Below the pieces are notes generated by a model. It saw nothing but the letters and a program-made list of their open reading frames with translations. It was not told the origin of the DNA and did no database searches. From contig JBFLWU010000007.1 of NCBI GenBank assembly GCA_040757625.1, positions 66,163 to 130,162 on the forward strand: 64,000 bases of DNA, written 5' to 3'. This stretch comes from Thermodesulfobacteriota bacterium. GTDB taxonomy: Bacteria > Desulfobacterota > Desulfobacteria > Desulfobacterales > JARGFK01. The translations under genes were made by a program, and so were the position numbers. Positions 3 to 46,079 of the stretch are shown here, piece by piece (within the stretch, counting starts at the first letter, position 1; the number at the start of each line of letters is the position of its first letter).

Positions 3-1574
3 AACCCCCTGCCGCCGTTTACCACCAGCAAGCTTCAGCAGGAGGCCATCCGCAAACTCGGGTTTACCGCCAAAAAAACCATGGTCATTGCCCAGCAGCT
101 GTATGAGGGCATCGATCTGGGACCGGGCGAGCCCGTCGGCCTGATTACCTATATGCGTACGGACTCAACCCGCATCGCGATGGAAGCGGCCCAGGAAGCG
201 CTCAAGCTGATCCAGAAGCAGTTCGGCGCCGAATACGTGATGCCCAAGCCCAGATTTTTTAAAAATCGCAATAAAGTCCAGGACGCCCATGAAGCCATTC
301 GCCCGACATCGGTATCGCATACTCCCGACGACGTTTCCGCTTTTCTTTCCAAGGACCAGCTGGCATTATACCGGTTGATCTGGCAGCGTTTTATCGCCTC
401 CCAGATGAAGGAGGCCCTCATCGATCAAAACTCCATTTCCATAAAAGCCGGCGCCTACGTGTTCAATGCCAGCGGTTCGTCCATCAAATTTCCGGGATTT
501 ATGGTTCTGTACCTCTCCGCCGACGACGAGATGGAAAGTGAAAAGAAAAAGGAGATGCTCCCGCCGCTTACGCCCGGAACGGCGCTGAACCTGAACAAAT
601 TCGAACCCAGGCAGCATTTCACCCTGCCGCCGCCCAGATTTTCGGAAGCTTCCCTGGTCAAGGAGCTCGAGGAAAACGGCATCGGGCGGCCCAGCACCTA
701 CGCCGCCATTTTATCCACCATCAGGGAAAAGGGTTACGTGGAACTGCTGAAAGGGTACTTCAAACCGACGGAACTCGGCTATATCGTTACCGATTTGCTG
801 GTGGAAAGTTTTCCCGACCTGCTGGATGTGGAATTTACGGCGAAAATGGAGGAGGATCTCGACCGGGTCGAGGCCGCCGAAGCCGATGCCACAGACCTAC
901 TGAGCCGGTTCTACGACCATTTTAAGGAAAAAATCGATGCGGCGTCCACCGATATGCTCAGCGTCAAGGGCGTCGGTTTTTCCACCGGCCTGGCCTGCCC
1001 GCAATGCGGCCAGACACTTCATATCAAGGTCGGAAAAAACGGCCACTTCCTGGCCTGCAGCGGCTACCCGAAGTGCACCTATTCCAGCGACTATACCCGC
1101 GATGAAAAGGGGATCATCCAGCCCGCCGGTGCCGTGGAGGCTGAAGTAACGGACAAGATCTGTGAAAAGTGCGGCAAGCCCATGGTGATCAAACAGGGCA
1201 AATTCGGCCGCTTCCTGGCTTGCAGCGGCTATCCGGACTGCAAAAATACCCAATCCCTGAATTCAAACGGAAACGGCCAGGATACCGGCGTCGCCTGCCC
1301 CCGGGAAGGCTGCGACGGCCATCTGCTGGAAAAAAAATCGAAGCGGGGCAAAATCTTTTACGGCTGCAACCGTTTTCCCGCCTGCAGTTTTGCGATCTGG
1401 GACAAGCCGGTCGCGCGCGACTGCCCCCGCTGCGGCGCCGGACTGCTGGTGGAAAAATCGAACAAGAAACAGGGAAGCTTCTATCTCTGCCTGACGGAAG
1501 GCTGCGATTATAAACAGAAACAGGGATCAGAAGTCGGGGATCAGGGATCAGAAAGAAAGGCTGAAGGGAGATAG
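3..1574 (+). CDS. topA: DNA topoisomerase I, C-terminal ~520 aa (5' end lies outside the window)
   Basis: The frame is open from nt 3 (NPLPPFTTSKLQQEAIRKLGF... then MVIAQQLYEG, a conserved TopA core). The C-terminal part carries repeated Cys4 zinc ribbons (CPQCG, CEKCG, CPREGCDG, CPRCG). The last ~17 codons run into heptamer-repeat DNA. Confidence 0.95.
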   Translation, partial: NPLPPFTTSKLQQEAIRKLGFTAKKTMVIAQQLYEGIDLGPGEPVGLITYMRTDSTRIAMEAAQEALKLIQKQFGAEYVMPKPRFFKNRNKVQDAHEAIRPTSVSHTPDDVSAFLSKDQLALYRLIWQRFIASQMKEALIDQNSISIKAGAYVFNASGSSIKFPGFMVLYLSADDEMESEKKKEMLPPLTPGTALNLNKFEPRQHFTLPPPRFSEASLVKELEENGIGRPSTYAAILSTIREKGYVELLKGYFKPTELGYIVTDLLVESFPDLLDVEFTAKMEEDLDRVEAAEADATDLLSRFYDHFKEKIDAASTDMLSVKGVGFSTGLACPQCGQTLHIKVGKNGHFLACSGYPKCTYSSDYTRDEKGIIQPAGAVEAEVTDKICEKCGKPMVIKQGKFGRFLACSGYPDCKNTQSLNSNGNGQDTGVACPREGCDGHLLEKKSKRGKIFYGCNRFPACSFAIWDKPVARDCPRCGAGLLVEKSNKKQGSFYLCLTEGCDYKQKQGSEVGDQGSERKAEGR

Positions 1575-1741
1575 GCAGAAGGTAAAAAAAATTGTGAGCT
1601 ATAAGCTTTTAACTGGAAATACAGACGGAAAAGTAGGAAGTAGGTAAATTAAACCGTCGCAGTGAGCAGAGGTCAAGTAACGTTAACCTTCAGCCTTCGG
1701 CCTTCAGACTATTTTCCTGTTTTTCAGATTACAAAAAAACC

Positions 1742-1770
1742 TTGACAAAGACATTAAATTCATTTATTAA
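1742..1770 (+). promoter_or_regulatory. sigma70-like promoter of the ilv leader (TTGACA, 17 nt spacer, TATTAA)
   Basis: TTGACA lies at 1742-1747 and TATTAA at 1765-1770, about 30 nt upstream of the leader ATG at 1801. Confidence 0.5.
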
Positions 1771-1800
1771 AATTTATTCTAAAATATTATTGGATACAAA

Positions 1801-1890
1801 ATGAAAAACGGATTGGCCCTTATCAACCTTATTAGCCTAATTATTATCCTCGTAGTCGGTGTACTTCCCTTCTACGAGGCACGGGGTTGA
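1801..1890 (+). CDS. 29-codon Ile/Leu/Val-rich leader peptide (MKNGLALINLISLIIILVVGVLPFYEARG)
   Basis: ATG at 1801 and TGA at 1888-1890. The peptide has 15 I/L/V residues out of 29, including the run LIIILVV. It sits between a promoter and a terminator directly upstream of ilvD. It is too short for the ORF track. Confidence 0.7.
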   Translation: MKNGLALINLISLIIILVVGVLPFYEARG

Positions 1891-1896
1891 TAATGG
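1886..1896 (+). promoter_or_regulatory. putative antiterminator segment of the ilv attenuator
   Basis: GTTGATAATGG (1886-1896) overlaps the leader stop codon. It can pair with the terminator 5' arm CCGTTATCAGC (1930-1940) over 11 positions, two of them G-U. It mimics the terminator 3' arm GCTGATAACGG. Confidence 0.55.
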
Positions 1897-1922
1897 CCTA
1901 AAACCAAATCATATCTTAACTT

Positions 1923-1965
1923 AAAAAAACCGTTATCAGCCCTAAGCTGATAACGGTTTTTTTTT
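1923..1965 (+). terminator. rho-independent terminator of the ilv attenuator
   Basis: The 11-bp perfect stem CCGTTATCAGC / GCTGATAACGG (1930-1940 and 1946-1956) has the loop CCTAA. It is followed by T9 (1957-1965) and preceded by A7. The RBS GGAGG (1967-1971) and the ilvD ATG (1981) follow. Confidence 0.85.
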
Positions 1966-1980
1966 CGGAGGATTAAAAAA

Positions 1981-3651
1981 ATGAAAAGCGACAGTGTCAA
2001 AAAAGGCGTTGAAAGAGCACCCCATCGTTCCCTCTTCAAGGCGATCGGTTATACCGACGCAGAAATCAAGCGCCCGCTGATCGGCATCGCCAATTCAGCC
2101 AATCAGATCATTCCGGGTCACTCTCATCTGGATCAAATCGTAGAGGCCGTCAAAGCCGGTATTTACATGGCGGGAGGCACGCCCATCGAATTCGGCACCA
2201 TCGGCATCTGCGACGGCATCGCCATGAATCATGTCGGCATGAAATACGTGCTCGGCAGCCGCGAACTGATCGCCGATTCCATCGAAGTCATGGCGGTGGC
2301 GCACGCCTTTGACGCCCTGGTGCTGGTGCCCAACTGCGACAAGATCGTCCCCGGAATGCTGATGGCGGCCGCCCGGCTGGACCTGCCCAGCATTGTCATC
2401 AGCGGCGGCCCCATGCTGGCCGGCAAAGAACCGGGGAAGGCGGACGGCAAGAAGATCGACCTGATAACGGTGTTTGAATGCGTCGGCGCCGTTCGCTCCG
2501 GCCGGATGACCGAAGCGGAACTGGCCGCTTATGAGGACGCCGCCTGTCCCACCTGCGGCTCCTGCGCCGGGATGTTTACCGCCAATTCCATGAACTGTCT
2601 GTCCGAGGCCATCGGCATGGCCCTGCCCGGCAACGGCACCATCCCGGCGGTCATGTCCGCACGGCTGCGCCTGGCCAAAGAAACCGGCATGCGGATTGTG
2701 GACCTGTTCAACCGGCAAATCACCCCCTCGAAGATCCTGACGGACAAAGCCTTTAAAAACGCGCTGCGCGTGGACATGGCCCTGGGGTGCTCCACCAACA
2801 CGGTCCTGCACCTGACGGCGCTGGCCAACGAGGCGCAGTTTAATATGGACTTGAACCTGATCAACACGGTCAGCCGGGAAACGCCGCACCTGTGTTCCAT
2901 GAGCCCGGGCGGACGGCACCATCTGGAAGATTTAAACCGGGCCGGCGGCATCCCTGCCGTCATCAAGGTGCTTTCCGACGCCGGATTGATCCACAACGAC
3001 TGTTTGACGGTGACCGGCGCCAGCGTCGCCGAAAATATTAAACATGCCCGGGTGCTGGATGCCGATATCATTCATCCCCTGGACAACCCCTACCATGCCG
3101 AAGGAGGCTTGGCGATTCTTTTCGGCAACCTGGCCCCGGAAGGCTGCGTGGTGAAGCAATCCGCGGTTCTGCCCGAAATGCTGCGGCACGAAGGCCCGGC
3201 GCGCGTGTTTGATTCCGAGGAAGCGGTCAGTCAGGCCATTATGGCGGGTAAAATTAAAAAAGGAGACGTGCTGGTGGTCCGGTACGAAGGACCCATGGGC
3301 GGGCCGGGGATGCAGGAGATGCTGACCCCCACGGCGGCCATTGCCGGCATGGGGCTGGACGCCCATGTGGCCCTGATTACCGACGGGCGTTTTTCCGGCG
3401 GATCCCGCGGCGCTTCCATCGGCCATATCTCGCCGGAAGCCATGCAGGGAGGCCCCATCGCCATCGTACAGGAGGGAGACCGGATCGCCATCGATATCCC
3501 CGCAAAAAAAATAACCCTGAAGCTATCCGATCAGGAAATCAGGGATCGGCTGGCCAAGTGGTCGCCGCCGAAACCTAAAATCACCCATGGATACATGGCC
3601 CGATATGCCCGGATGGTATCTTCCGGCAGCAACGGGGCGGTGTTGAAATGA
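1981..3651 (+). CDS. ilvD: dihydroxy-acid dehydratase
   Basis: 556 aa with the IlvD/Edd family signature ([31 protein letters not shown]) and a good RBS. Confidence 0.97.
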
Positions 3652-3806
3652 GTGAAAGGCTGAAGGCGGACAGTCTGAAGGTCAAAGGGATAGTAACGAG
3701 TATATAGTGACTAGGGACGAATGGCTCGCGGGCAGACAACAGACAGAAGGAAGAAGGCCCTGACCTTGACCTTATCCTTCAGTCTTCAGCCTTCAGCCTA
3801 TTTACC
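3652..3806. repeat. intergenic heptad-word palindromic element (exemplar)
   Basis: About 16 consecutive words ending in AG, mostly 7 nt (gtgaaag gctgaag ... acaacag acagaag gaagaag), are followed by complementary CT-initial words (cttcagt cttcagc cttcagc) and the end motif ctatttacc. Confidence 0.7.
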
Positions 3807-3889
3807 TGAACACTGGGAAGCCAAGAATTAAAAATCAGTTTCAGGCTCATGATGGTGAATAAAAAATAGATGAATGAAGGAAACAGATT

Positions 3890-5575
3890 ATGAAACTCAC
3901 AGGTGCACAGATTTTACTGAAAACGCTGAAAGACGAGGGTGTTGATACCATCTTCGGTTATCCCGGAGGTTGCGTTATCGATATTTACGACGAACTGCTC
4001 CGGAGCGATTTGCGGCATATTTTTGTCCGCCACGAGCAGGGGGCCATTCATGCCGCCGACGGCTATGCCCGCGCCAGCGGCCGGGTTGGCGTGTGCCTGG
4101 TGACGTCCGGCCCCGGCGCCACCAATACCATCACCGGCATCGCCAATGCCTTCATGGACTCCATTCCGGTGGTAATCATCACCGGGCAGGTCCCCAGTCA
4201 TCTCATCGGAAACGATGCCTTTCAGGAGGTGGACATCGTCGGCATCACCCGTCCGTGCACCAAGCACAATTATCTGGTCAATTCCACTGAAGAACTGGCG
4301 CAAACCATCAAAGAGGCTTTTTTTATCGCCAGTTCCGGGCGTCCGGGACCGGTTTTGGTCGATATTCCCAAAAACGTCATCCAGGAAACCATTGAATACA
4401 AACCGCCCAAAACGGTCAAGCTGCGCTCCTACAACCCCACTTACAATCCCAATATGAAGCAGCTCCATAAGGTGGTGGGACTGATCCGGGAAGCCAAACG
4501 GCCCGTTATTTTTGCCGGCGGCGGCGTCCTGCTCTCCAAGGCCGCCAGGGAGTTGACGGAACTGGCCCATAAGGCCCGGATCCCGGTGACGACTTCGCTG
4601 ATGGGCATGGGCGCCTTCCCCGGTTCGGATCCCCTATGCCTGGGAATGATCGGCATGCACGGAACTTACCGGGCCAACACCTCCTCGGGCACGTGCGACC
4701 TGATGATTGCCGTGGGCGTCCGCTTCGACGACCGCGTAACCGGCAAGACCGATACGTTTGCGCCCCAGGCCAAAATCGTCCATATCGACATCGATCCGAC
4801 ATCCATCCGCAAAAACATACCGGTTGCCGTTCCGGTTGTGGGGGACTGTAAGATCACCCTGATCCATTTGAACAAGCTCTTGGATGAAACCGATCTGGGC
4901 GACCTTCACAAAAAACGCAAACCCTGGCTGGATCAGATCGAAGAGTGGAAAAGCACCCGTCCCCTCGCCTACCAGCAGGGAAACGTGATCAAGCCCCAAT
5001 ACGTGGTTGAAAAACTGTATGAAATGACCCGGGGGGAAGCGATCGTCTCCACCGAAGTCGGCCAGAACCAGATGTGGGCCGCCCAGTACTATCACTTCGA
5101 CAAGCCCCAGCACTTTCTGACTTCCGGCGGACTCGGCGCCATGGGTTTCGGGCTCCCCGCAGCCATCGGCGCTCAAATCGCCTGCCCGGACAAGCTGGTG
5201 GTGGACATCGCCGGGGACGCCAGCATCCAGATGAATATCCAGGAGATGGCCACCGCCGTTCAATATTGTCTGCCGGTAAAAATCGTGATTCTCAATAATG
5301 GGTTTCTCGGCATGGTGAGACAGTGGCAGGAATTTTTTTACGAAAAACGCTACGCCTGCACCCTGGTGGAGCACGCCCCCGATTTTGTAAAACTGGCCGA
5401 GGCATACGGTGCCGTGGGGCTGCGGGCCCAAAAGCCCGAAGAGGTGGAAGCGGTCCTCAGGGAAGGCCTCTTTTCACCCAAGACCGTCATCATGGATTTT
5501 ATTGTTGAAAAGGAAGAGTGCGTCTATCCGATGGTTCCCGCCGGAGCGCCGATTACGGAAATGCTGCTGGTATAA
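3890..5575 (+). CDS. ilvB: acetolactate synthase large (catalytic) subunit
   Basis: 561 aa ThDP enzyme (GYPGG, HEQGA.HAADGYAR, GGLGAMGFGLPAAIGA), followed by the small subunit. Confidence 0.95.
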   Translation: MKLTGAQILLKTLKDEGVDTIFGYPGGCVIDIYDELLRSDLRHIFVRHEQGAIHAADGYARASGRVGVCLVTSGPGATNTITGIANAFMDSIPVVIITGQVPSHLIGNDAFQEVDIVGITRPCTKHNYLVNSTEELAQTIKEAFFIASSGRPGPVLVDIPKNVIQETIEYKPPKTVKLRSYNPTYNPNMKQLHKVVGLIREAKRPVIFAGGGVLLSKAARELTELAHKARIPVTTSLMGMGAFPGSDPLCLGMIGMHGTYRANTSSGTCDLMIAVGVRFDDRVTGKTDTFAPQAKIVHIDIDPTSIRKNIPVAVPVVGDCKITLIHLNKLLDETDLGDLHKKRKPWLDQIEEWKSTRPLAYQQGNVIKPQYVVEKLYEMTRGEAIVSTEVGQNQMWAAQYYHFDKPQHFLTSGGLGAMGFGLPAAIGAQIACPDKLVVDIAGDASIQMNIQEMATAVQYCLPVKIVILNNGFLGMVRQWQEFFYEKRYACTLVEHAPDFVKLAEAYGAVGLRAQKPEEVEAVLREGLFSPKTVIMDFIVEKEECVYPMVPAGAPITEMLLV

Positions 5576-5576
5576 A

Positions 5577-5718
5577 ATAGACTAAAGGCCGAAGGTGGTG
5601 GATAGGTGGAAGGTTGAAAGGATAGCGACGAGGAACAAATGGCGAGTAGGCAGAAAGCAGCCGGCTGTCGTAACGAGCGGTAATATAAGTCTTCAGTCTT
5701 CAGCCTTCGGTCTAAATG
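5577..5718. repeat. intergenic heptad-word palindromic element
   Basis: Left part: aaaatag actaaag gccgaag ... gtggaag. Right part: tcttcag tcttcag ccttcgg tctaaat. It shares the core GAAGG..GGATAG(Y)RACGAG with element 3652-3806. Confidence 0.65.
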
Positions 5719-5796
5719 CCTGACCCCCCTCCTGCCAACGGGAAATGGGAATATGAATTTAAGGATTTAAACGAACACAGCAGAAGGAATATCATC

Positions 5797-6285
5797 ATGA
5801 CAGAAGATAAACACGTGCTTTCAATTCTTGTGGACAATAAGCCCGGAGTGCTTTCCAGAATCGCAGGGCTTTTCAGCGGCAGAGGTTACAATATCGAAAG
5901 CCTCTGCGTCGCCGAAACCACTGAGCCCCTGGTGTCCAGGATCACGATCGTCACCAAGGCCAACACTCTGGGAATTGAGCAGATCAACAAACAGCTCAAC
6001 AAACTGATCAACGTCATCAAGGTGCACGAACTCACCGGCACCGAGTATGTTGAAAGAGAAATGGCCCTGATCAAGGTCAAGGCCAAACCCGAACACCGCG
6101 CAGAGATATTAAGGATCGTGGACATATTTCGGTGCAAGGTGGTGGATGTGGGGCTGGAGCACTACACCATCGAAATCACCGGTGATGAAGGCAAATTGTC
6201 GGCGATCATCAGCCTGCTCAAGCCCATTGGAATAAAGGAAATTGCCAAAACGGGGATCATCGCCCTTTACCGGGAACCCAAGTAG
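5797..6285 (+). CDS. ilvN: acetolactate synthase small (regulatory) subunit
   Basis: ACT-domain start MTEDKHVLSILVDNKPGVLSRIAGLFSGRGYNIESL. The ATG at 5797 has the RBS AGAAGGA. The track ORF start at 5716 would read out of repeat DNA. Confidence 0.9.
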   Translation: MTEDKHVLSILVDNKPGVLSRIAGLFSGRGYNIESLCVAETTEPLVSRITIVTKANTLGIEQINKQLNKLINVIKVHELTGTEYVEREMALIKVKAKPEHRAEILRIVDIFRCKVVDVGLEHYTIEITGDEGKLSAIISLLKPIGIKEIAKTGIIALYREPK

Positions 6286-6332
6286 AAATTGAGAATTGAA
6301 GATTGAAGACTGAAAATTGTGAATGGAGAATT
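6284..6332. repeat. 7-bp periodic purine-rich tandem array (GARAWTT x7)
   Basis: agaaatt gagaatt gaagatt gaagact gaaaatt gtgaatg gagaatt, immediately after the ilvN stop. Confidence 0.8.
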
Positions 6333-6492: not shown

Positions 6493-7545
6493 ATGGCAAC
6501 AATCGATTTTGGCGGCGTACTGGAAGAAGTCATCACGGCAGAGGAATTTCCTCTGGAACATGCCCGGGAAGTATTGAAAAAAGAAACCGTGGCGGTGCTG
6601 GGATATGGGGTCCAGGGTCCCGGCCAGTCTCAGAACCTGAGAGACAACGGCATCAACGTTATCGTCGGGCAGCGTGAAAACAGCAAATCCTGGGACCGGG
6701 CCGTGGCCGACGGTTTTGTCCCGGGCGAAACGCTTTTTCCGGTCGAAGAGGCCGCAAAGAGAGGAACGGTCATCCAAAACCTGTTGTCGGATGCCGGCCA
6801 GGTGGCCACCTGGCCGCAGATCAAAAAATGCCTGAACGAAGGGGATGCGCTGTATTTTTCCCATGGATTTTCAATCACGTATAAAGACCAGACCGGTGTC
6901 ATCCCGCCGGATTTCGTTGACGTCATTCTGGTGGCGCCCAAAGGTTCCGGGACTACCCTGCGTACAAACTTTTTGGAAGGCAGCGGCCTGAACTCCAGCT
7001 TCGCCATCCACCAGAATTATACCGGACGGGCCAAGGAACGCACCCTTGCCCTGGGTATTGCCATCGGTTCGGGGTATCTCTTCCCGACGACATTTGAAAA
7101 AGAAGTCTTCAGCGACCTGACCGGAGAACGCGGTGTCCTGATGGGCTGCCTGGCCGGTGTAATGGAGGCCCAGTACGAACTGCTGCGCAAACACGGCCAT
7201 ACCCCCAGCGAAGCGTTTAACGAAACCGTTGAAGAGCTGACCCAGAGCCTGATCCTGCTGGTCGCTGAAAACGGCATGGACTGGATGTATGCCAACTGCA
7301 GCGCCACCGCCCAGCGCGGAGCGCTGGACTGGGCCCCGAAATTTCGGGACGCGGTGGCACCGGTGTTCGATGCCCTGTATGAACGGGTCGCTTCAGGGGC
7401 CGAAACCAAACGCGTCCTGGAAGCAAACAGCGCGTCCGATTACCGTGAAAAGCTGCAAAAGGAACTGAACATCTTAAAGAATTCCGAAATGTGGCGGGCC
7501 GGCGCCGCCGTGCGGGCGCTGCGGCCGGAAAATCGCAGGCGCTAA
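6493..7545 (+). CDS. ilvC: ketol-acid reductoisomerase
   Basis: 350 aa with a class I KARI N-terminus (VAVLGYGVQGPGQSQNLRDNGINVIVG). Confidence 0.95.
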   Translation: MATIDFGGVLEEVITAEEFPLEHAREVLKKETVAVLGYGVQGPGQSQNLRDNGINVIVGQRENSKSWDRAVADGFVPGETLFPVEEAAKRGTVIQNLLSDAGQVATWPQIKKCLNEGDALYFSHGFSITYKDQTGVIPPDFVDVILVAPKGSGTTLRTNFLEGSGLNSSFAIHQNYTGRAKERTLALGIAIGSGYLFPTTFEKEVFSDLTGERGVLMGCLAGVMEAQYELLRKHGHTPSEAFNETVEELTQSLILLVAENGMDWMYANCSATAQRGALDWAPKFRDAVAPVFDALYERVASGAETKRVLEANSASDYREKLQKELNILKNSEMWRAGAAVRALRPENRRR

Positions 7546-7910
7546 CCGCCCGTTTATTTTTGACGGGATCGACAGGATTTTCAGGATAATTCTTATCGTT
7601 ATTCACGGCTTCCAGAAGAAACCGTGAACATATAATCCGCCGGGGGCTGAAAGAAGTTTTTCGAGAATGACGAACAAATGATCTGTTCAGCCCAAAAACA
7701 AATACCGGCGGGGAAAACCAGGGACGGCCTGCTCCGATCAGCGGTCGAATCTTTCTGCCTGCCTTCAGGGCAGGCAGAAAATCCCTGTTCATCCTGTCAA
7801 TCCTGTCAAAACAATTTATTGCAATGGCGGCATATTTAAACAGCTGGCGGTTTGAATGCGCCGGGTGAATGGGCGATTTTAAAAATTTACTATTTGGAGA
7901 CAACGACAAG

Positions 7911-9512
7911 ATGGAACCGATACTGCTTTACGACACCACCTTAAGAGACGGCACCCAGGGTGAAAACATCAATTTCAGCGCGGAAGAAAAAATCAGGATC
8001 GCGCAGCGGTTGGATGACCTGGGGATCCATTACATAGAAGGTGGCTGGCCGGGATCCAACCCCCGGGACAAGCAGTTTTTCAAACTGGCGAAAAAGGCCG
8101 AACTGAAAACCGCCCGGCTGGCGGCCTTCGGGGCCACCCGCAAGCCCGGCATTCATCCGGAAGACGATCAAAACCTGACGGAGCTGATCAAAAGCGATAC
8201 CCCGGTAATCACCATATTCGGTAAAAGCTGGGACCTGCACGTCGAGCAGATCATGTACAATACGCTGGAGGAAAACCTGGCCATGATCCAGGAGACGGTC
8301 GCATATTTAAAGCAGCAGGACCGCGAGGTCATCTACGATGCCGAACATTTTTTCGACGGGTATAAAGGCAACCGGGATTACGCCGCGCAAACCGTCCTTG
8401 CCGCTTTAAAAGGCGGCGCCGATGCCGTCGTACTGTGTGATACCAACGGCGGGACGCTCCCGTTTGAAATTGAAACGATTATCGCGGAGGTCGAAAGCGC
8501 TTTGCGCGGCTATTTCCGCCTGGAGCCCCAGCGCCCGCTGCCGGTCAGAATAGGCATCCACGCTCATAATGACTGCGGGCTGGCGGTGGCCAATTCAGTT
8601 ACCGCCGTCCGGGCCGGCGCCTCCATGGTCCATGGAACCATCAACGGCTACGGCGAAAGGTGCGGCAATGCCGATCTGACGTCGATTGTGCCGATTCTGT
8701 GTTTAAAAATGAACCGGTCCTGTGTATCACCGGGAAATCTGGCCAAGCTGAAAAAAATTTCCAGGTTTGTCAGCGAGACCGCCAATATGATCCCGCTGAC
8801 CACGCGGCCGTTTGTGGGTAACAGCGCGTTTGCCCATAAAGGCGGCATCCATGTCAATGCCATCATGAAGATCCCGAAAGCATACGAGCACATCGCCCCT
8901 GAAGATGTCGGCAATGAGCGCCGGGTATTGATTTCAGACCTTTCCGGCAAAAGCAACATCGAATATAAGGCCAAGGAACTGGGGGTTGAACTCGGCGCCA
9001 ATGGATTTGACAGCGGCCGCATTGTCTCGGAAATAAAAAAACTGGAGCAGCAGGGTTTCCAGTTTGACGTGGCTGACGGATCGTTCAAGATTCTGATCGA
9101 AAAGTTTACGGAGCAGTTTCAGCCCCTCTTTGAGCTGGAGTCTTTCAGGGTCACCATTGAAAAGGATAAGGATCAGCCCTGTTCGGCCCATGCCACCATC
9201 AAGATTTCGGTGGGAGGGCAGAAGGAGATCACCGCCGCCGAAGGCCACGGACCGGTCAGCGCGCTGGACAACGCCCTCCGCAAGGCCCTGGATAAATTCT
9301 ATCCCCATCTCGACAGCATGCAGCTGGTGGATTTCAAGGTTCGCGTCATTGACGGGAGGGAGGGAACCGCCGCAAAAGTCCGGGTGATTATCGCTTCCCG
9401 GGATGAAAACAATATCTGGAGCACCATCGGTGTTTCTGAAGACATTATCGAAGCGAGCTGGCAGGCGCTGGCAGACAGCTTCCATTATAAACTGTCGGCG
9501 GGTAAAGCATGA
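7911..9512 (+). CDS. cimA: (R)-citramalate synthase-type member of the 2-isopropylmalate synthase family
   Basis: LYDTTLRDGTQ, HAHND and a LeuA-type C-terminal dimerisation/regulatory domain. The ~530 aa LeuA-related architecture resembles characterised CimA enzymes. The start is ambiguous (7869 or 7911). Confidence 0.75.
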   Translation: MEPILLYDTTLRDGTQGENINFSAEEKIRIAQRLDDLGIHYIEGGWPGSNPRDKQFFKLAKKAELKTARLAAFGATRKPGIHPEDDQNLTELIKSDTPVITIFGKSWDLHVEQIMYNTLEENLAMIQETVAYLKQQDREVIYDAEHFFDGYKGNRDYAAQTVLAALKGGADAVVLCDTNGGTLPFEIETIIAEVESALRGYFRLEPQRPLPVRIGIHAHNDCGLAVANSVTAVRAGASMVHGTINGYGERCGNADLTSIVPILCLKMNRSCVSPGNLAKLKKISRFVSETANMIPLTTRPFVGNSAFAHKGGIHVNAIMKIPKAYEHIAPEDVGNERRVLISDLSGKSNIEYKAKELGVELGANGFDSGRIVSEIKKLEQQGFQFDVADGSFKILIEKFTEQFQPLFELESFRVTIEKDKDQPCSAHATIKISVGGQKEITAAEGHGPVSALDNALRKALDKFYPHLDSMQLVDFKVRVIDGREGTAAKVRVIIASRDENNIWSTIGVSEDIIEASWQALADSFHYKLSAGKA

Positions 9513-10099: not shown

Positions 10100-11638
10100 A
10101 TGAGCGACAGAGTAATTATATTCGACACCACCCTGCGGGACGGCGAACAGTCTCCGGGCGCCAGCATGAACACGGCCGAAAAACTGCGGCTGGCAACCCA
10201 GATGGTAAAGTTGGGAGTGGATGTGCTGGAGGCCGGTTTTCCGGCCGCATCCGAAGGAGATTTTGACGCGGTTTCATCCATCGCCGCTAAAATAAAAGGA
10301 ATCGAAATCGCCGGTCTGGCGCGCACATCGAAAGAAGACATCGATCGGGCCTGGGAAGCCATTCGCAGCGCGGCCAAGCCGCGCATCCACACCTTTATCG
10401 CCACCTCGGATATTCACATGACCTACAAGCTGAAAATGTCCAGGGATGCAGTGGTCAAGAAGGCGGTCGAGGCCGTCAGGTACGCCAAATCCCTCACGGA
10501 TAATGTGGAGTTTTCAGCCGAAGACGGTTCCCGCAGCGATCGGGACTTTCTGTGCAAGGTTTTTGAAGCGGCCATTGAAGCCGGCGCCAGAACCCTCAAC
10601 CTGCCCGATACCGTCGGGTATGCCATCCCCGAGGAATTCGGGAGCCTGGTTAAATATGTCATGACCCATACGCCCAACATCCATAAAGCAGTTTTAAGCG
10701 TTCACTGCCACAATGATCTGGGTCTGGCCACGGCCAACACGATCGCGGCCATCGCTGCCGGAGCCCGCCAGGCCGAAGTCACCATCAACGGCATCGGTGA
10801 AAGGGCCGGCAATACCTCTCTGGAAGAAGTGGTCATGGCGCTGCATACCCGGCCGAATTTTATTCCGGTAACCACCGGCATCCGGACGGACCAGATTTAT
10901 CCCACCAGCCGCCTGGTAAGCATGATCACCGGCATCATCGTGCAGCCTAACAAGGCCATCGTCGGCGCCAACGCCTTTGCCCACGAGGCTGGAATCCACC
11001 AGGACGGCATACTGAAAAATCCCATGACCTATGAAATCATGAAGCCGGAAACCATCGGGCTCAGCAAGAACACGCTGATCCTCGGCAAGCATTCCGGTCG
11101 CCACGCCCTGCGCGAACACCTCAAAGGGCTGGGATACGATCTTTCCGACGAAGAGATTCAGCTGGTTTTTGTCAAATTCAAGGAACTGGCGGACAAGAAA
11201 AAGCATGTGGTGGATGAAGATCTGGAAGTCCTTGTCACGGAAGGAATCCTGCGGACCACCGATATCTTCCGTCTGGAATATCTGCATGTCACCAGCGGAA
11301 CGACGGTTCTGCCCATGGCAAGCGTCAAACTCCTGATCAAAGACCGCTCCGTTAAGGGCGCCGGGTACGGCAACGGCCCCATCGACGCGGTTTACAACAC
11401 CATCGCCAAGCTGACCGATACGGGATCGGAACTCTTGCGATTCTCGGTCAGCGCGCTGACCGGCGGCACCGATGCCATGGGAGAGGTCACGGTACGCCTG
11501 AGGGAAAACGGTTTGATCGCTCTCGGCAAAGGCGCGGACCCGGACATCATCACAGCCAGTGCCAAGGCTTACGTCAATGGGTTGAACCGGCTCGAATACC
11601 TTAAATCGCACCCGGTGGTTGCGGATGAAAGCCTGTAG
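10100..11638 (+). CDS. leuA: 2-isopropylmalate synthase
   Basis: MSDRVIIFDTTLRDGEQSPG, HCHNDLGLATAN and a C-terminal LeuA allosteric domain. RBS AAAGGAG lies 7 nt upstream. The track ORF start at 9998 is an upstream extension. Confidence 0.93.
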   Translation: MSDRVIIFDTTLRDGEQSPGASMNTAEKLRLATQMVKLGVDVLEAGFPAASEGDFDAVSSIAAKIKGIEIAGLARTSKEDIDRAWEAIRSAAKPRIHTFIATSDIHMTYKLKMSRDAVVKKAVEAVRYAKSLTDNVEFSAEDGSRSDRDFLCKVFEAAIEAGARTLNLPDTVGYAIPEEFGSLVKYVMTHTPNIHKAVLSVHCHNDLGLATANTIAAIAAGARQAEVTINGIGERAGNTSLEEVVMALHTRPNFIPVTTGIRTDQIYPTSRLVSMITGIIVQPNKAIVGANAFAHEAGIHQDGILKNPMTYEIMKPETIGLSKNTLILGKHSGRHALREHLKGLGYDLSDEEIQLVFVKFKELADKKKHVVDEDLEVLVTEGILRTTDIFRLEYLHVTSGTTVLPMASVKLLIKDRSVKGAGYGNGPIDAVYNTIAKLTDTGSELLRFSVSALTGGTDAMGEVTVRLRENGLIALGKGADPDIITASAKAYVNGLNRLEYLKSHPVVADESL

Positions 11639-11848
11639 GCAGGGAAAATAGGCTGAAGACTGAAGGTAGATAGGCTGAAGGATAGTTGTCCGTAGTCCGC
11701 GGATAGAATTTCACCGGACAATGAACGACCTTTCGGTTGTATGCTCAAGGAAGGGCGGTAAACAATGGACAACAGAAGGCTGAAAGCCGCAAATGGTTAG
11801 TCCCGTCGCGCGGGATTGAACCTTCAGCCTTCAGCCTTCAGTCTGATC
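11639..11848. repeat. intergenic heptad-word palindromic element between convergent genes
   Basis: Left part: aaaatag gctgaag actgaag gtagatag gctgaag gatag. Right part: ccttcag ccttcag ccttcag tctgatc. Confidence 0.7.
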
Positions 11849-16075: not shown

Positions 16076-16306
16076 GGCGTAAAATATTGATACCCGTAGG
16101 TTGTTGCCCGTTGTTCGTTGAAGCGCTATCCACGTACGACCGGATTGCTGCTTACTGCTTACAGCCGACCCCCGGCTTGCCCCTGACTTCTGTATCCTGA
16201 CACCGATCCCGCACCGCTACCGGTAACCCGTAACGCGCAGCCGGCCATTTGCCGCTTTCACCCGTTACGATTTCCCTTCAGCCTTCAGTCTATCCGCCTC
16301 CAGCCT

Positions 16307-24029: not shown

Positions 24030-24560
24030 CTACGGGGCCATCCGCTTAATCGCCTCCATATACTTCTTTTTCTTGCAGCGCGGGCAGGTGGACAAGAGCG
24101 CCGCGATCTCTTTGCGACTTTCCAGGTTCACCAGATATTCCAATTCTTTTTTCGGCATCAGATACCCGCCGCAATCCGGGCACGTGACCGCATAGCGGGT
24201 ATGCCCGCGCTGCAGCATATACGCTCTAAGGTCCGTCATAAAACTTTGAAACAACACCCCGCTAGGGCAGTAAAACGTGCATTCTTCGCAGGTCAGGCAG
24301 AACCAGAAGGCCTCGTCGCCGACTTTGTCGGGTTCAAACAGGATCCGCTCCACAATCGCCCGGGACGACCGGCCGTAATCGTATCGACCGTAAAGATTTA
24401 CCATCGGACAAACGGCAGAGCATTTGCCGCACTCTAAACACAGGTTGAGGCGATAGTCGCTTTTGAATTTCTCGATGCTGCCCCGCTCAAATACCGGTAT
24501 CTGTTTTTTAGCTTGCGATTTCATAATCTTTAGGTGTTTAGCCTGAAGACTGCAGGCCAT
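24030..24560 (-). CDS. HdrC-like 2x[4Fe-4S] protein with a C-terminal zinc ribbon
   Basis: CLECGKCSAVCP and CLTCEECTFYCP, plus CPDCGG...CPRC. An alternative start exists at 24524. Confidence 0.7.
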   Translation of the reverse strand: MACSLQAKHLKIMKSQAKKQIPVFERGSIEKFKSDYRLNLCLECGKCSAVCPMVNLYGRYDYGRSSRAIVERILFEPDKVGDEAFWFCLTCEECTFYCPSGVLFQSFMTDLRAYMLQRGHTRYAVTCPDCGGYLMPKKELEYLVNLESRKEIAALLSTCPRCKKKKYMEAIKRMAP

Positions 24561-24694
24561 TGTTATTGCCTTGTCTTTCGGTTCACATTACCACGATGTC
24601 CGTTGTTTGCTGTCAGTTGTTCGTTGAAACCCTGCTTCGGACAACTGACTTTCAGCCAATCTCTTTCAGCCTTCAGTCTATTTACCTCCAGCCT
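24561..24694. repeat. intergenic heptad-word palindromic element between hdrA-like and hdrC-like genes
   Basis: The left end tttagcctgaagactgcagg (reaching into the 5' end of the longer hdrC-like ORF) matches the right end ctttcagccttcagtctatttacc. There is an internal 12-bp stem gtcagttgttcg / cggacaactgac. Confidence 0.6.
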
Positions 24695-45363: not shown

Positions 45364-45608
45364 GAACCCTCCACGCAGATCTGCTTAAATAAAATTCATC
45401 GTAATAATTGCAACACAAGTTTTTTCGAAATACGCTGTAAGATACTATAACAAGGGCCTGCCGGCATGATGTGCAATAGTTGTGATAAGTACATTAAATT
45501 AATGAAAAAATATAGTAAATCCCTGGCGATCCGTCAAGCAAAAAGGACAAAAGAAAAACCGCCCTCGGGGATACTCCCCGACCGGACCGGCGATTTTCGG
45601 CAAGGAAA

Positions 45609-46079
45609 TTAAAGCGGATTTTTTTCCTGCTGCGGCGGCACACGGATAGACAGGACCGGGCAGTTTGCATAGCGGATCACCTTTTCGGTCACGGAACCGA
45701 ACATAAACTTCCGCCAGCCGGTAAAACCATGAGTCGCGATGATGATCATGTCCATATTTTCAGAATCTGCCAGGCCGACAATCTGGCTGGAGGGATCGCC
45801 CTGAATGACCACCGTGCGGGATCGGATACTTGGAGAAACCTTTTCCTGCTGCATTTTTCTCAGCGCTTTCAAGGCGGACTGTTCCATCTCCTTTTCATAG
45901 AGCGGCAGATTAAAACTGGTGGGATCGTCGTGAATCGGAATAACAGGAATAGGCGTTACGACATGAACCAGAATCAGTTCGGCTGAAAAATGCGTGGCCA
46001 CTTCACAGGCCACTTTAAGGGCTTCCTGGGATGGCTCACTGAAATCTGTCGGGCAACATATTTTTGTAATGGGCAACAT
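45609..46079 (-). CDS. universal stress protein (UspA family)
   Basis: KICCPTDFSE...IIIATHG..G...GSVTEKVIRYANCPVL. RBS AAGGAGA lies 6 nt before the ATG at 46079. Confidence 0.85.
   Translation of the reverse strand: MLPITKICCPTDFSEPSQEALKVACEVATHFSAELILVHVVTPIPVIPIHDDPTSFNLPLYEKEMEQSALKALRKMQQEKVSPSIRSRTVVIQGDPSSQIVGLADSENMDMIIIATHGFTGWRKFMFGSVTEKVIRYANCPVLSIRVPPQQEKNPL

What the first reader, a model, noticed from the sequence alone, without database searches (positions are those of the whole stretch)
1742..1980. Complete Ile/Leu/Val leader-peptide attenuator in front of ilvD
Four elements lie in order. First, a TTGACA-17-TATTAA promoter. Second, an unannotated 29-codon ORF (1801-1890, MKNGLALINLISLIIILVVGVLPFYEARG) in which 15 of 29 residues are I, L or V. 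Third, an 8-bp hairpin inside the ORF (CCTCGTAG 1848-1855 / CTACGAGG 1872-1879). Fourth, an 11-bp perfect terminator stem followed by T9 (1930-1965), just before the ilvD RBS. The segment GTTGATAATGG (1886-1896) overlaps the leader stop codon. It is a near-copy of the terminator 3' arm, so it can pair with the terminator 5' arm as an antiterminator. A ribosome that reaches the stop codon would mask this segment and allow termination. A ribosome stalled at the ILV codons would leave it free. This is the classical attenuation logic, and whether it has been described for this lineage is unknown to me. It is not in the supplied ORF track.
Basis: partly seen in the sequence, partly recalled or inferred. 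Interest (0 to 1): 0.6.

Follow-up and report, generated by a model that had tools for sequence, protein, structure and literature searches.

The report
Branched-chain amino acid leader-peptide attenuator
A short, unannotated stretch in front of the ilvD-ilvB-ilvN-ilvC-cimA-leuA gene cluster has every sequence feature of a classical ribosome-sensing transcription attenuator for isoleucine, leucine and valine; it is well conserved in Desulfobacterales relatives but is an ordinary kind of switch, not a new one.

Summary
Window 1742-1965 contains, in order:

- a TTGACA-17-TATTAA promoter;
- a conserved inner hairpin;
- an intrinsic terminator, 15 nt before the ilvD start codon (its GGAGG RBS begins 2 nt after the T-run).

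Segment 1 (1815-1830, inside the ORF) pairs with the stop-codon-overlapping segment 2 (1883-1898). This completes the classical 1:2 / 2:3 / 3:4 design.

Homologous leaders precede ilvD in 7 Desulfobacterales-type genome bins. About 87 non-redundant genome-bin and metagenome leaders sharing the terminator motif sit before ilvD, ilvB, cimA or leuA.

In these relatives:

- segment 2 lies within ribosome reach of the stop codon in 97%;
- 2:3 pairing beats shuffles (median z -5);
- the helices stay paired, with some compensatory changes;
- codon position 2 stays T while I, L and V interchange.

No Rfam, Pfam or NCBIfam family matches, and I found no paper describing it in this lineage.

Nothing is shown experimentally, and the leader has a weak Shine-Dalgarno sequence.

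Verdict: a new member of a known kind. Confidence is high and interest is moderate to low.

The parts
1742..1747 (+). -35 hexamer TTGACA of the leader promoter
   Evidence: Read. An exact TTGACA lies 47-90 nt before the leader ATG in 61 of 86 related leaders, and a hexamer with at most 1 mismatch in 77 of 86.
1765..1770 (+). -10 hexamer TATTAA, 17-nt spacer. It is imperfect and lacks the consensus T at position 6.
   Evidence: It was not listed by the generic scan. Relatives usually have a TAnnnn hexamer at a 17-nt spacing, often preceded by TG.
1801..1890 (+). Leader ORF of 29 codons plus TGA: MKNGLALINLISLIIILVVGVLPFYEARG. It has 14 I/L/V codons, lying between codons 5 and 22 (1813-1866).
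   Evidence: Homologous 27-33 codon ORFs with 14-16 I/L/V occur in 7 genome bins. In the alignment, codon position 2 is conserved as T while I, L and V interchange.
1815..1830 (+). Segment 1 (GGCCCTTATCAACCTT), inside the ORF at codons 5-10. It pairs with segment 2 as an anti-antiterminator.
   Evidence: MFE folds. Inverted repeat I25. The 1:2 helix alone is -17.6 kcal/mol. 73% of cells are paired in 50 aligned relatives.
1848..1879 (+). Inner hairpin CCTCGTAG / CTACGAGG, lying between segments 1 and 2. It may be a pause hairpin or a helper for the 1:2 pairing.
   Evidence: -14.2 kcal/mol. Present in all 8 folded sequences. 75% of cells paired, and 4 of 8 pairs show changes on both sides.
1883..1898 (+). 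Segment 2 (GGGGTTGATAATGGCC). It overlaps the TGA stop at 1888-1890 and pairs either with segment 1 or with segment 3.
   Evidence: In 97% of 89 non-redundant candidate leaders, segment 2 lies within ribosome reach of the stop codon.
1930..1943 (+). Segment 3 (CCGTTATCAGCCCT). Bases 1930-1940 form the terminator 5' arm. Bases 1930-1943 pair with 1883-1896 as a 14-bp antiterminator containing 3 G-U pairs.
   Evidence: Truncated folds. -18.5 kcal/mol. The 2:3 helix is 89.8% paired in 50 relatives, and one pair is seen as UG, CG, GC and UA.
1946..1965 (+). Segment 4 (GCTGATAACGG, 1946-1956) followed by T9 (1957-1965). This is the 3' half of the intrinsic terminator.
   Evidence: (I5) and 55: -16.5 kcal/mol for the core and -23.6 with the A7/U7 extension. 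One terminator pair is seen as GC, CG, GU and AU in relatives.
1967..3651 (+). ilvD ribosome-binding site (GGAGG 1967-1971) and ilvD coding sequence (1981-3651). This is the first controlled gene. ilvB, ilvN, ilvC, cimA and leuA follow on the same strand.
   Evidence: NCBIfam hits.

Best explanation
This is a classical ribosome-mediated (leader-peptide) transcription attenuator that senses charged Ile, Leu and Val tRNAs. It controls read-through into ilvD and probably further into ilvB-ilvN-ilvC-cimA-leuA.

Proposed mechanism:

1. Transcription starts a few bases after the -10 hexamer (about 1777), and a ribosome starts at AUG 1801.
2. When the three amino acids are plentiful, the ribosome runs to UGA 1888-1890. 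Its footprint then covers segment 2 (1883-1898). Segment 3 is left to pair with segment 4, and the hairpin plus U9 ends the transcript near 1965.
3. When a charged tRNA is scarce, the ribosome stalls within codons 5-22. There it covers segment 1 (1815-1830), or sits between segments 1 and 2. Segment 2 stays free and pairs with segment 3 (14 bp) as soon as segment 3 emerges. The terminator cannot form, and RNA polymerase reads on.
4. With no translation at all, segment 1 pairs with segment 2 first, so the terminator forms. The default state is therefore off.

Shown from sequence: all elements, their mutual exclusivity, their conservation, and their association with branched-chain amino acid genes.

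Inferred: translation of the leader, the stalling response, the termination site, and how far down the cluster the control reaches.
For: - Anatomy and folds in the window.
- The same promoter, leader ORF, three alternative helices and terminator lie upstream of ilvD in 7 genome bins whose IlvD is 65-79% identical. These bins are Desulfobacterales, Desulfobacteraceae, Desulfosarcina and Desulfamplus, plus one labelled only 'Proteobacteria bacterium'. The arrangement is absent from more distant ilvD loci.
- A terminator-motif scan of metagenomes returned 120 loci, most with an I/L/V-rich small ORF just upstream.
- Counting the 87 non-redundant genome-bin and metagenome leaders together, the downstream gene is ilvD in 39, ilvB in 6, cimA in 27 and leuA in 4. 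The other 11 had no identifiable branched-chain gene downstream; about half sit on contigs too short to tell.
- Segment 2 to segment 3 duplexes have a median of -20.1 kcal/mol, z = -5.1 against shuffles. Segment 2 lies within reach of the stop codon in 97%.
- On a MAFFT alignment that was not fitted to structure, the off-state is 80.7% paired and the 2:3 helix 89.8% paired. Slid controls give 30-56%. Compensatory changes link segments 2, 3 and 4.
- There is a coding signature. Codon position 2 has entropy 0.53, against 1.24 and 1.11 for positions 1 and 3. T is invariant at position 2 of codons 11 and 22 while I, L and V interchange.
- A divergent member, L061, keeps the architecture with a completely different segment 2/3/4 sequence.
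- The upstream neighbour is topA in only 15 of 77 loci, so the element travels with the biosynthetic gene.
Against: - There are no experimental data of any kind.
- The Shine-Dalgarno sequence before the leader AUG is weak or absent, both here (GGA only) and in most relatives. 43 of 87 have no 3-mer match, and only 11 of 87 have a 4-mer or longer. By contrast, 68 of 87 have one before the downstream gene.
- The -10 hexamer is imperfect.
- Covariation is modest. Many pairs never vary or vary on one side only. The metagenome set was selected by the terminator motif, so the invariance of that motif in the set is partly ascertainment.
- Thermodynamically, the 1:2 and 2:3 states are nearly isoenergetic, so the outcome depends on co-transcriptional kinetics that cannot be computed here.
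- There is a precedent for caution. [quoted passage not shown]
Confidence: 0.85

Rival explanations
1. A translation-independent RNA switch. The same alternative helices (1:2, 2:3, 3:4) would be set by a trans-acting factor such as an amino-acid-binding protein, an uncharged tRNA or a small RNA. The small ORF would be incidental or auxiliary.
For: Weak or absent Shine-Dalgarno before the leader AUG in most members. The strongly conserved CCGUUAUCAG motif, shared by the leaders of four operon types, could in principle be a binding site.
Against: The ORF, with its start and a stop at a fixed position relative to segment 2, is kept in about 87 diverged leaders. Codon position 2 is conserved while I, L and V interchange, which is selection on the encoded amino acids. 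No T-box or riboswitch family matches, even at E up to 10. L061 keeps the design with a different motif. Motifs used in several pairings are known to be conserved in attenuators (PMC1262725).
Confidence: 0.07
2. An independent small hydrophobic (membrane) protein gene with its own terminator. It would merely happen to lie upstream of ilvD, and ilvD would be expressed by read-through or from another promoter.
For: The peptide looks like a single transmembrane helix. Some homologues have been called as genes by automatic pipelines, without names.
Against: It always sits directly before a branched-chain amino acid biosynthesis gene (76 of 87) and not elsewhere. Only 15 nt separate the T-run from the ilvD start codon (the RBS begins 2 nt after the T-run), leaving no room for a promoter. 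The stop codon overlapping an antiterminator strand is conserved. Peptide sequence outside the I/L/V positions is poorly conserved. There is no Pfam or NCBIfam match.
Confidence: 0.04
3. An ordinary constitutive terminator that ends topA transcription or insulates ilvD, plus a chance ORF in AT-rich DNA.
For: topA ends about 350 nt upstream, at 1574. The hairpin is flanked by A and T runs and could act in both directions.
Against: A conserved consensus -35 lies between topA and the ORF. topA is the upstream neighbour in only 15 of 77 related loci. ORF composition, alternative pairing and conservation are far beyond chance.
Confidence: 0.02

Closest known systems
Escherichia coli ilvGMEDA (ilvL) and ilvBN (ivbL) leader-peptide attenuators (own knowledge; Pfam IlvGEDA_leader and IlvB_leader)
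   Same: A roughly 30-codon leader rich in Ile, Leu and Val codons. Alternative 1:2, 2:3 and 3:4 helices. An intrinsic terminator directly before branched-chain amino acid biosynthesis genes, including ilvD. Multivalent logic in which any of the three amino acids can relieve termination.
   Different: No detectable sequence relationship: no Pfam or NCBIfam hit for the peptide and no Rfam hit for the RNA. The lineage differs (Desulfobacterales-like). The operon differs (ilvD-ilvB-ilvN-ilvC-cimA-leuA, with citramalate synthase). The Shine-Dalgarno sequence is weak.
[quoted passage not shown]
   Same: A conserved upstream ORF rich in branched-chain codons, coupled to a strong terminator stem before an ilv gene. 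These were recognised by comparative genomics as attenuators.
   Different: They occur in other lineages: Actinobacteria, various phyla for ilvB-OMG (as reported in PMC10272879), and Leptospira. They have other sequences and structures. No Rfam family, at gathering score or at E up to 10, matches the window beyond chance hits.
Rfam leader families (Leu_leader, His_leader, Thr_leader, Trp_leader, Phe_leader)
   Same: The same regulatory principle and the same four-segment architecture.
   Different: Only Phe_leader appears, at 17.5 bits against a gathering score of 55 (E = 2.6). That is not a member-level match.
Staphylococcus aureus ilv-leu leucine-rich attenuator peptide (PMC5794164)
   Same: A leader peptide with regulatory branched-chain codons upstream of ilvD-led biosynthesis genes.
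   Different: As its title indicates, that system is Leu-specific and combined with CodY repression. The leader here mixes I, L and V (5 I, 6 L, 3 V). No CodY-type input was examined.

Membership tests
Classical leader-peptide (ribosome-mediated) transcription attenuator | Short ORF with start and stop codons, lying between the promoter and the first structural gene | tested here: met
   ORF 1801-1890, downstream of TTGACA-17-TATTAA and upstream of ilvD. Conserved in relatives.
Classical leader-peptide (ribosome-mediated) transcription attenuator | The ORF is enriched in codons for the end-product amino acids of the controlled pathway | tested here: met
   14 of 29 codons are I/L/V, ranking 2nd of 401 small ORFs. 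Relatives have 12-24 I/L/V. Position-2 T is conserved. Downstream genes are ilvD, ilvB, cimA or leuA.
Classical leader-peptide (ribosome-mediated) transcription attenuator | Intrinsic terminator (GC-containing hairpin plus U-run) between the ORF and the structural gene | tested here: met
   11-bp perfect stem (18 bp with A/U pairs) plus T9, -16.5 / -23.6 kcal/mol. This is sequence-level evidence only.
Classical leader-peptide (ribosome-mediated) transcription attenuator | An antiterminator helix mutually exclusive with the terminator, whose 5' strand is masked by a ribosome at the stop codon | tested here: met
   1883-1896 pairs with 1930-1943 (14 bp, -18.5 kcal/mol), and the stop codon lies inside the 5' strand. 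Across relatives: z = -5.1, 97% near the stop, 89.8% paired.
Classical leader-peptide (ribosome-mediated) transcription attenuator | An upstream segment within the ORF that sequesters the antiterminator strand when no ribosome stalls (1:2 pairing) | tested here: met
   1815-1830 pairs with 1883-1898 in the MFE structure. 73% paired in relatives. The duplex z of -2.4 is weaker than for 2:3.
Classical leader-peptide (ribosome-mediated) transcription attenuator | The leader ORF is actually translated | tested here: inconclusive
   For: the codon-position pattern and the conserved start and stop. Against: weak or absent Shine-Dalgarno in most members. Ribosome profiling or toeprinting is needed.
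Classical leader-peptide (ribosome-mediated) transcription attenuator | Premature termination that is relieved by shortage of the cognate charged tRNAs | not testable with these tools
   This requires Term-seq, reporter assays or in vitro transcription-translation.
Named leader families in Rfam, Pfam and NCBIfam (Leu_leader, ilvB-OMG, IlvGEDA_leader, IlvB_leader and others) | A score at or above the family's curated threshold | tested here: not met
   Rfam found nothing at gathering score for the window or for 12 related loci. The best leader hit was Phe_leader at 17.5 of 55 bits. Pfam and NCBIfam found nothing at E up to 10.
T-box (tRNA-sensing) leader | Specifier loop and T-box sequence recognised by the Rfam T-box model | tested here: not met
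   No T-box hit at E up to 10 in 1560-2060.

The most novel reading that the evidence does not exclude
The 10-nt CCGUUAUCAG motif and its complement are shared by the leaders of four different operon heads (ilvD, ilvB, cimA, leuA) across many Desulfobacterales-like genomes. The most novel reading is that the motif is kept not only by its triple use in pairing and its overlap with Val/Ile/Leu codons, but also because a common trans-acting factor (protein or small RNA) recognises it. That would add a second, regulon-wide input on top of ribosome stalling.

A more modest version is much more likely, at about 0.6. In that version this is simply an uncatalogued, order-wide family of branched-chain attenuators that is missing from Rfam.
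Probability: 0.07. Interest if true: 0.6.

Novelty: new member of a known kind. Interest (0 to 1): 0.35.

Why it matters
- It gives a concrete, testable regulatory model for branched-chain amino acid biosynthesis in Desulfobacterales-type sulfate reducers. In this lineage I found no described attenuator, and no Rfam, Pfam or NCBIfam model covers the element.
- The alignment and covariance model made here could seed an RNA family. That family would let annotators mark about a hundred leaders before ilvD, ilvB, cimA and leuA in genomes and metagenomes.
- Annotators could then also stop calling the leader peptide a hypothetical protein.
- It does not change how attenuation is understood.

Tried and rejected
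- **Rfam.** I searched the whole window at gathering score, 1560-2060 at E up to 10, and 12 related loci. Only chance-level hits appeared, such as mir-451 on the palindromic terminator and Phe_leader at 17.5 bits.
- **Pfam and NCBIfam.** Three leader peptides gave nothing.
- **Exact-protein look-up of the window's IlvD.** I hoped to find the source record, but it is not on record.
- **Other leaders in the window.** I looked before cimA and leuA with a motif search, ORF lists and a covariance model. None was found. The only other model hit with E below 0.01 is the reverse strand of the same terminator; a further hit at 45494-45625 (18.5 bits, E = 0.92) is at chance level.
- **Literature.** Seven full-text searches and several papers gave no description for Desulfobacterales or sulfate reducers. 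Rodionov 2004 on delta-proteobacteria contains none of the terms attenuator, leader peptide, ilv or branched. Lopatovskaya 2010 is not held in the library. I did not look up Vitreschak 2004 and know it only from other papers' reference lists. A prior mention in either cannot be excluded.
- **Generic promoter/terminator scan.** It missed both elements: the -10 fails its position-6 T rule, and the terminator probably because the stem absorbs the T-run.
- **Small membrane protein, or topA terminator.** I considered and rejected both.

Full report
**1. Observation**

- Promoter: TTGACA at 1742-1747, 17 nt, then TATTAA at 1765-1770.
- ORF: ATG at 1801 opens a 29-codon ORF ending in TGA at 1888-1890. 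It encodes MKNGLALINLISLIIILVVGVLPFYEARG.
- Inner hairpin: CCTCGTAG (1848-1855) and CTACGAGG (1872-1879) are complementary.
- Terminator: arms at 1930-1940 and 1946-1956 form a perfect 11-bp stem around the loop CCTAA, followed by T9 (1957-1965). With the A7 run at 1923-1929, the perfect inverted repeat is 18 nt (I5).
- ilvD: GGAGG at 1967-1971 and ATG at 1981.

The generic consensus scan listed neither the promoter nor the terminator. The promoter fails its rule that the -10 hexamer must end in T. The terminator was probably missed because the stem swallows the T-run.

The features are not chance:

- The 1775-1975 RNA folds at -64.3 kcal/mol, against -37.3 ± 3.6 for shuffles (z = -7.5).
- The ORF's I/L/V fraction of 0.48 ranks second among 401 small ATG ORFs in the window (mean 0.18, sd 0.08). 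The only higher one lies antisense inside ilvN.

**2.

The minimum-free-energy fold pairs GGCC-C-UUAUCAACCUU (1815-1830, codons 5-10 of the ORF) with GGGGUUGAUAA-U-GGCC (1883-1898). The second strand is the segment that overlaps the stop codon. The small hairpin is nested inside this pairing.

So the element has all four classical segments:

| Structure | Coordinates | Energy |
|---|---|---|
| 1:2 domain, with inner hairpin | 1815-1898 | -32.8 kcal/mol |
| 1:2 helix alone | 1815-1830 with 1883-1898 | -17.6 kcal/mol |
| Inner hairpin | 1848-1879 | -14.2 kcal/mol |
| 2:3 antiterminator, 14 bp with three G-U pairs | 1883-1896 with 1930-1943 | -18.5 kcal/mol |
| 3:4 terminator, core / with A-U extension | 1930-1956 / 1923-1963 | -16.5 / -23.6 kcal/mol |

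Folding with segment 4 not yet made, and the 5' part blocked by a ribosome at codon 8, 12, 16 or 20, always gives the 2:3 helix. Folding with a ribosome at the stop codon gives only the terminator.

**3. Context**

The downstream genes are:

- ilvD (1981-3651)
- ilvB (3890-5575)
- ilvN (5716-6285)
- ilvC (6493-7545)
- citramalate synthase cimA (7869-9512)
- leuA (about 10100-11638)

Upstream is the 3' part of topA, ending at 1574. The window holds only one such leader. A motif search, ORF lists of the cimA and leuA upstream regions, and a covariance-model scan found nothing else.

**4. Relatives found through IlvD, independent of the leader sequence**

I scanned one genome per species with the IlvD protein. 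The closest loci were 57-79% identical.

- Seven loci carry the same arrangement upstream of ilvD: L001-L005, L008 and L009. They are labelled Desulfobacterales, Desulfobacteraceae, Desulfosarcina and Desulfamplus, plus one 'Proteobacteria bacterium'.
- Each has a 27-33 codon ORF with 14-16 I/L/V. The stop codon lies 27-39 nt before a CCGTTATCA...ATAACGG terminator, which lies 17-118 nt before ilvD.
- Each sequence, folded on its own, gives the inner hairpin, the 2:3 helix and the terminator. Most also give the 1:2 helix.
- More distant ilvD loci lack it. These include Desulfatiglandales, Syntrophobacteraceae and Desulfovibrio.
- A covariance model built from the alignment also found a divergent member in L061 (42.8 bits). 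It has the promoter and an I/L/V-rich leader (…HIILWISLIILLVDRREGAV). Its segment 2/3/4 set is entirely different: GGAAGGGG, CCCCTTCC, GGAAGGGG. The architecture survives complete replacement of the pairing sequence.

**5. Relatives found through the terminator motif**

Most have an I/L/V-rich small ORF immediately upstream.

After removing duplicates and two false entries, and pooling with the genome-bin leaders and the window, 87 leaders remained. The downstream genes are:

| Downstream gene | Leaders |
|---|---|
| ilvD | 39 |
| ilvB | 6 |
| cimA | 27 |
| leuA | 4 |
| No identifiable branched-chain gene (about half on contigs too short to tell) | 11 |

- Leaders before ilvD and ilvB resemble the window's. 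I call these class A.
- Leaders before cimA and leuA are about 38 codons long. They have an Ile run followed by a Leu run, and segment 2 is translated as G-L-I-M. I call these class B.
- topA is the upstream neighbour in only 15 of 77 loci. The element therefore belongs to the biosynthetic gene, not to topA.
- An exact TTGACA lies 47-90 nt before the leader ATG in 61 of 86 leaders, and a hexamer with at most 1 mismatch in 77 of 86. It is usually followed after 17 nt by a TA-starting hexamer.

**6. Tests of the alternative pairing**

- Across 89 non-redundant candidate leaders, the best duplex between segment 3 and the preceding 72 nt has a median of -20.1 kcal/mol, z = -5.1 against shuffles. 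In 97% it lies within ribosome reach of the stop codon. The best segment 1 to segment 2 duplex has a median of -18.6 kcal/mol, z = -2.4.
- On a MAFFT alignment of 50 class A leaders, not fitted to any structure, the off-state structure is 80.7% paired. Slid controls give 32-51%. The 2:3 helix is 89.8% paired.
- Compensatory variation is modest but coherent. The terminator pair at position 10 of the arm occurs as GC (36), CG (6), GU (3) and AU (2). Its antiterminator counterpart occurs as UG (20), CG (16), GC (6) and UA (3).
- There is an ascertainment caveat. The first nine bases of the arm were fixed by the search pattern, so their invariance in the metagenome set says nothing. Their conservation is an independent observation only in the 7 genome bins.
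- That conservation has a known explanation. Motifs that take part in several pairings within an attenuator stay conserved over long distances (PMC1262725, citing Vitreschak 2004). In addition, segment 1, which mimics segment 3, has to encode Val, Ile or Leu codons (inference).

**7. Evidence that the ORF is read as codons**

- In the alignment, codon position 2 is nearly invariant T at the hydrophobic positions. T is present in all sequences at codons 11 and 22.
- Positions 1 and 3 vary, and the encoded residue switches among I, L and V. Codon 22 is I in 24, L in 23 and V in 3. Codon 21 is V in 23, I in 21 and L in 5.
- In codons 11-16, which are unpaired in both states, mean entropy is 1.24, 0.53 and 1.11 for positions 1, 2 and 3.
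- This is selection on amino-acid class, not on RNA sequence.
- Against translation, the Shine-Dalgarno sequence before the leader AUG is weak. The window has only GGA. Of 87 relatives, 43 have no 3-mer match and only 11 have a 4-mer or longer. By contrast, 68 of 87 have one before the downstream gene.

**8. Mechanism (inferred)**

1. Transcription starts near 1777 and a ribosome loads at AUG 1801.
2. With ample charged tRNAs, the ribosome reaches UGA 1888-1890 and covers segment 2. Segments 3 and 4 form the terminator, and transcription stops near 1965.
3. With a shortage of charged tRNA-Ile, -Leu or -Val, the ribosome stalls between codons 5 and 22. It then covers segment 1, or sits between segments 1 and 2. 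Segment 2 pairs with segment 3 as it emerges, and RNA polymerase continues into ilvD.
4. Without translation, 1:2 forms first, so the default is termination.
5. The inner hairpin may act as a pause signal that synchronises polymerase and ribosome. This is speculation.

How far down the cluster the control reaches is unknown. The intergenic gaps of 140-590 nt carry repeated elements and could hold internal promoters.

**9. Rival explanations**

- A translation-independent switch set by a trans-acting factor fits the weak Shine-Dalgarno sequence and the conserved motif. It does not fit the codon pattern, the conserved stop position, the absence of T-box or riboswitch matches, or the motif replacement in L061.
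- A free-standing small membrane protein does not explain the strict placement before four kinds of branched-chain amino acid genes, or the stop codon lying inside an antiterminator strand.
- A topA terminator is excluded by the intervening conserved promoter and by the variable upstream neighbours.
- The Streptomyces coelicolor ilvB leader, where substituting the candidate regulatory codons had no effect on regulation (PMC1262725), is a reminder that the design alone does not prove the mechanism.

**10. Comparison with what is known, and novelty**

- It is not a member of any catalogued family. Rfam 15 gives nothing at gathering score for the window or for 12 related loci. The best leader hit is Phe_leader at 17.5 of 55 bits. 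Pfam and NCBIfam give nothing for the peptides.
- A few homologous peptides were called as genes by pipelines, without names.
- Seven literature searches found no description in Desulfobacterales or sulfate reducers. Lopatovskaya 2010 is not held in the library, and I did not look up Vitreschak 2004, so prior mention is possible.

**11. Verdict**

This is a new member, and in fact a sizeable uncatalogued family, of a well-known kind of regulator. It is useful for annotation and as an Rfam seed, but it would not surprise a specialist.

Noticed in passing
window 1555-1719, 3654-3808, 5575-5722, about 6290-6330, 11651-11843, 16276-16290, 24541-24678: A family of intergenic repeat elements, about 150-190 nt long where both ends are visible. 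Each is bounded by inverted termini made of CTTCAGN heptads: GAAAGGCTGAAGG... at one end and ...CCTTCAGCCTTCAGCC at the other. The pattern CTTCAGYCTTCRGYC has 16 hits against 0.56 expected. The elements fill the gaps between topA and the leader promoter, between ilvD and ilvB, between ilvB and ilvN, and after leuA. They look like MITE- or REP-type elements. Their function is unknown, and they could affect operon continuity.
   Followed up: partly
L085, L099, L102, L145, L150 and about 25 other metagenome loci: A second leader class (class B) shares the CCGTTATCAGG terminator arm but precedes citramalate synthase (cimA, 27 loci) or leuA (4 loci). It has about 38 codons and the pattern NIIxIIsAxGI..SLLLLLLVV..K.PGLIM*. 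The window's own cimA (7869) and leuA (about 10100) have no such leader.
   Followed up: partly
L115, L138 (and L091, L142, L155, L187): Some class B-like leaders are followed not by a biosynthesis gene but by a P-loop NTPase-like ORF (L115, L138). Others have degenerate leaders with few I/L/V codons, for example MKLTDQNTKDIIRITGTRPFYPWLVPMVGNLKLPGLIMP. These may be decaying or re-used attenuators.
   Followed up: no
L061 2781-2979: A divergent attenuator lies before ilvD in an unclassified marine biofilm bin whose IlvD is 57% identical. It has the same promoter and leader style but an unrelated terminator and antiterminator sequence (CCCCTTCC/GGAAGGGG). The family is therefore wider than the CCGTTATCA motif used for searching.
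   Followed up: partly
window 7580-7640: Upstream of cimA there is a short run of Ile/Leu/Val codons (ATA ATT CTT ATC GTT ATT) followed by a 6-bp hairpin (TCACGG/CCGTGA). It has no start codon in frame and no U-run. It may be a remnant of a former leader, or it may be chance.
   Followed up: no
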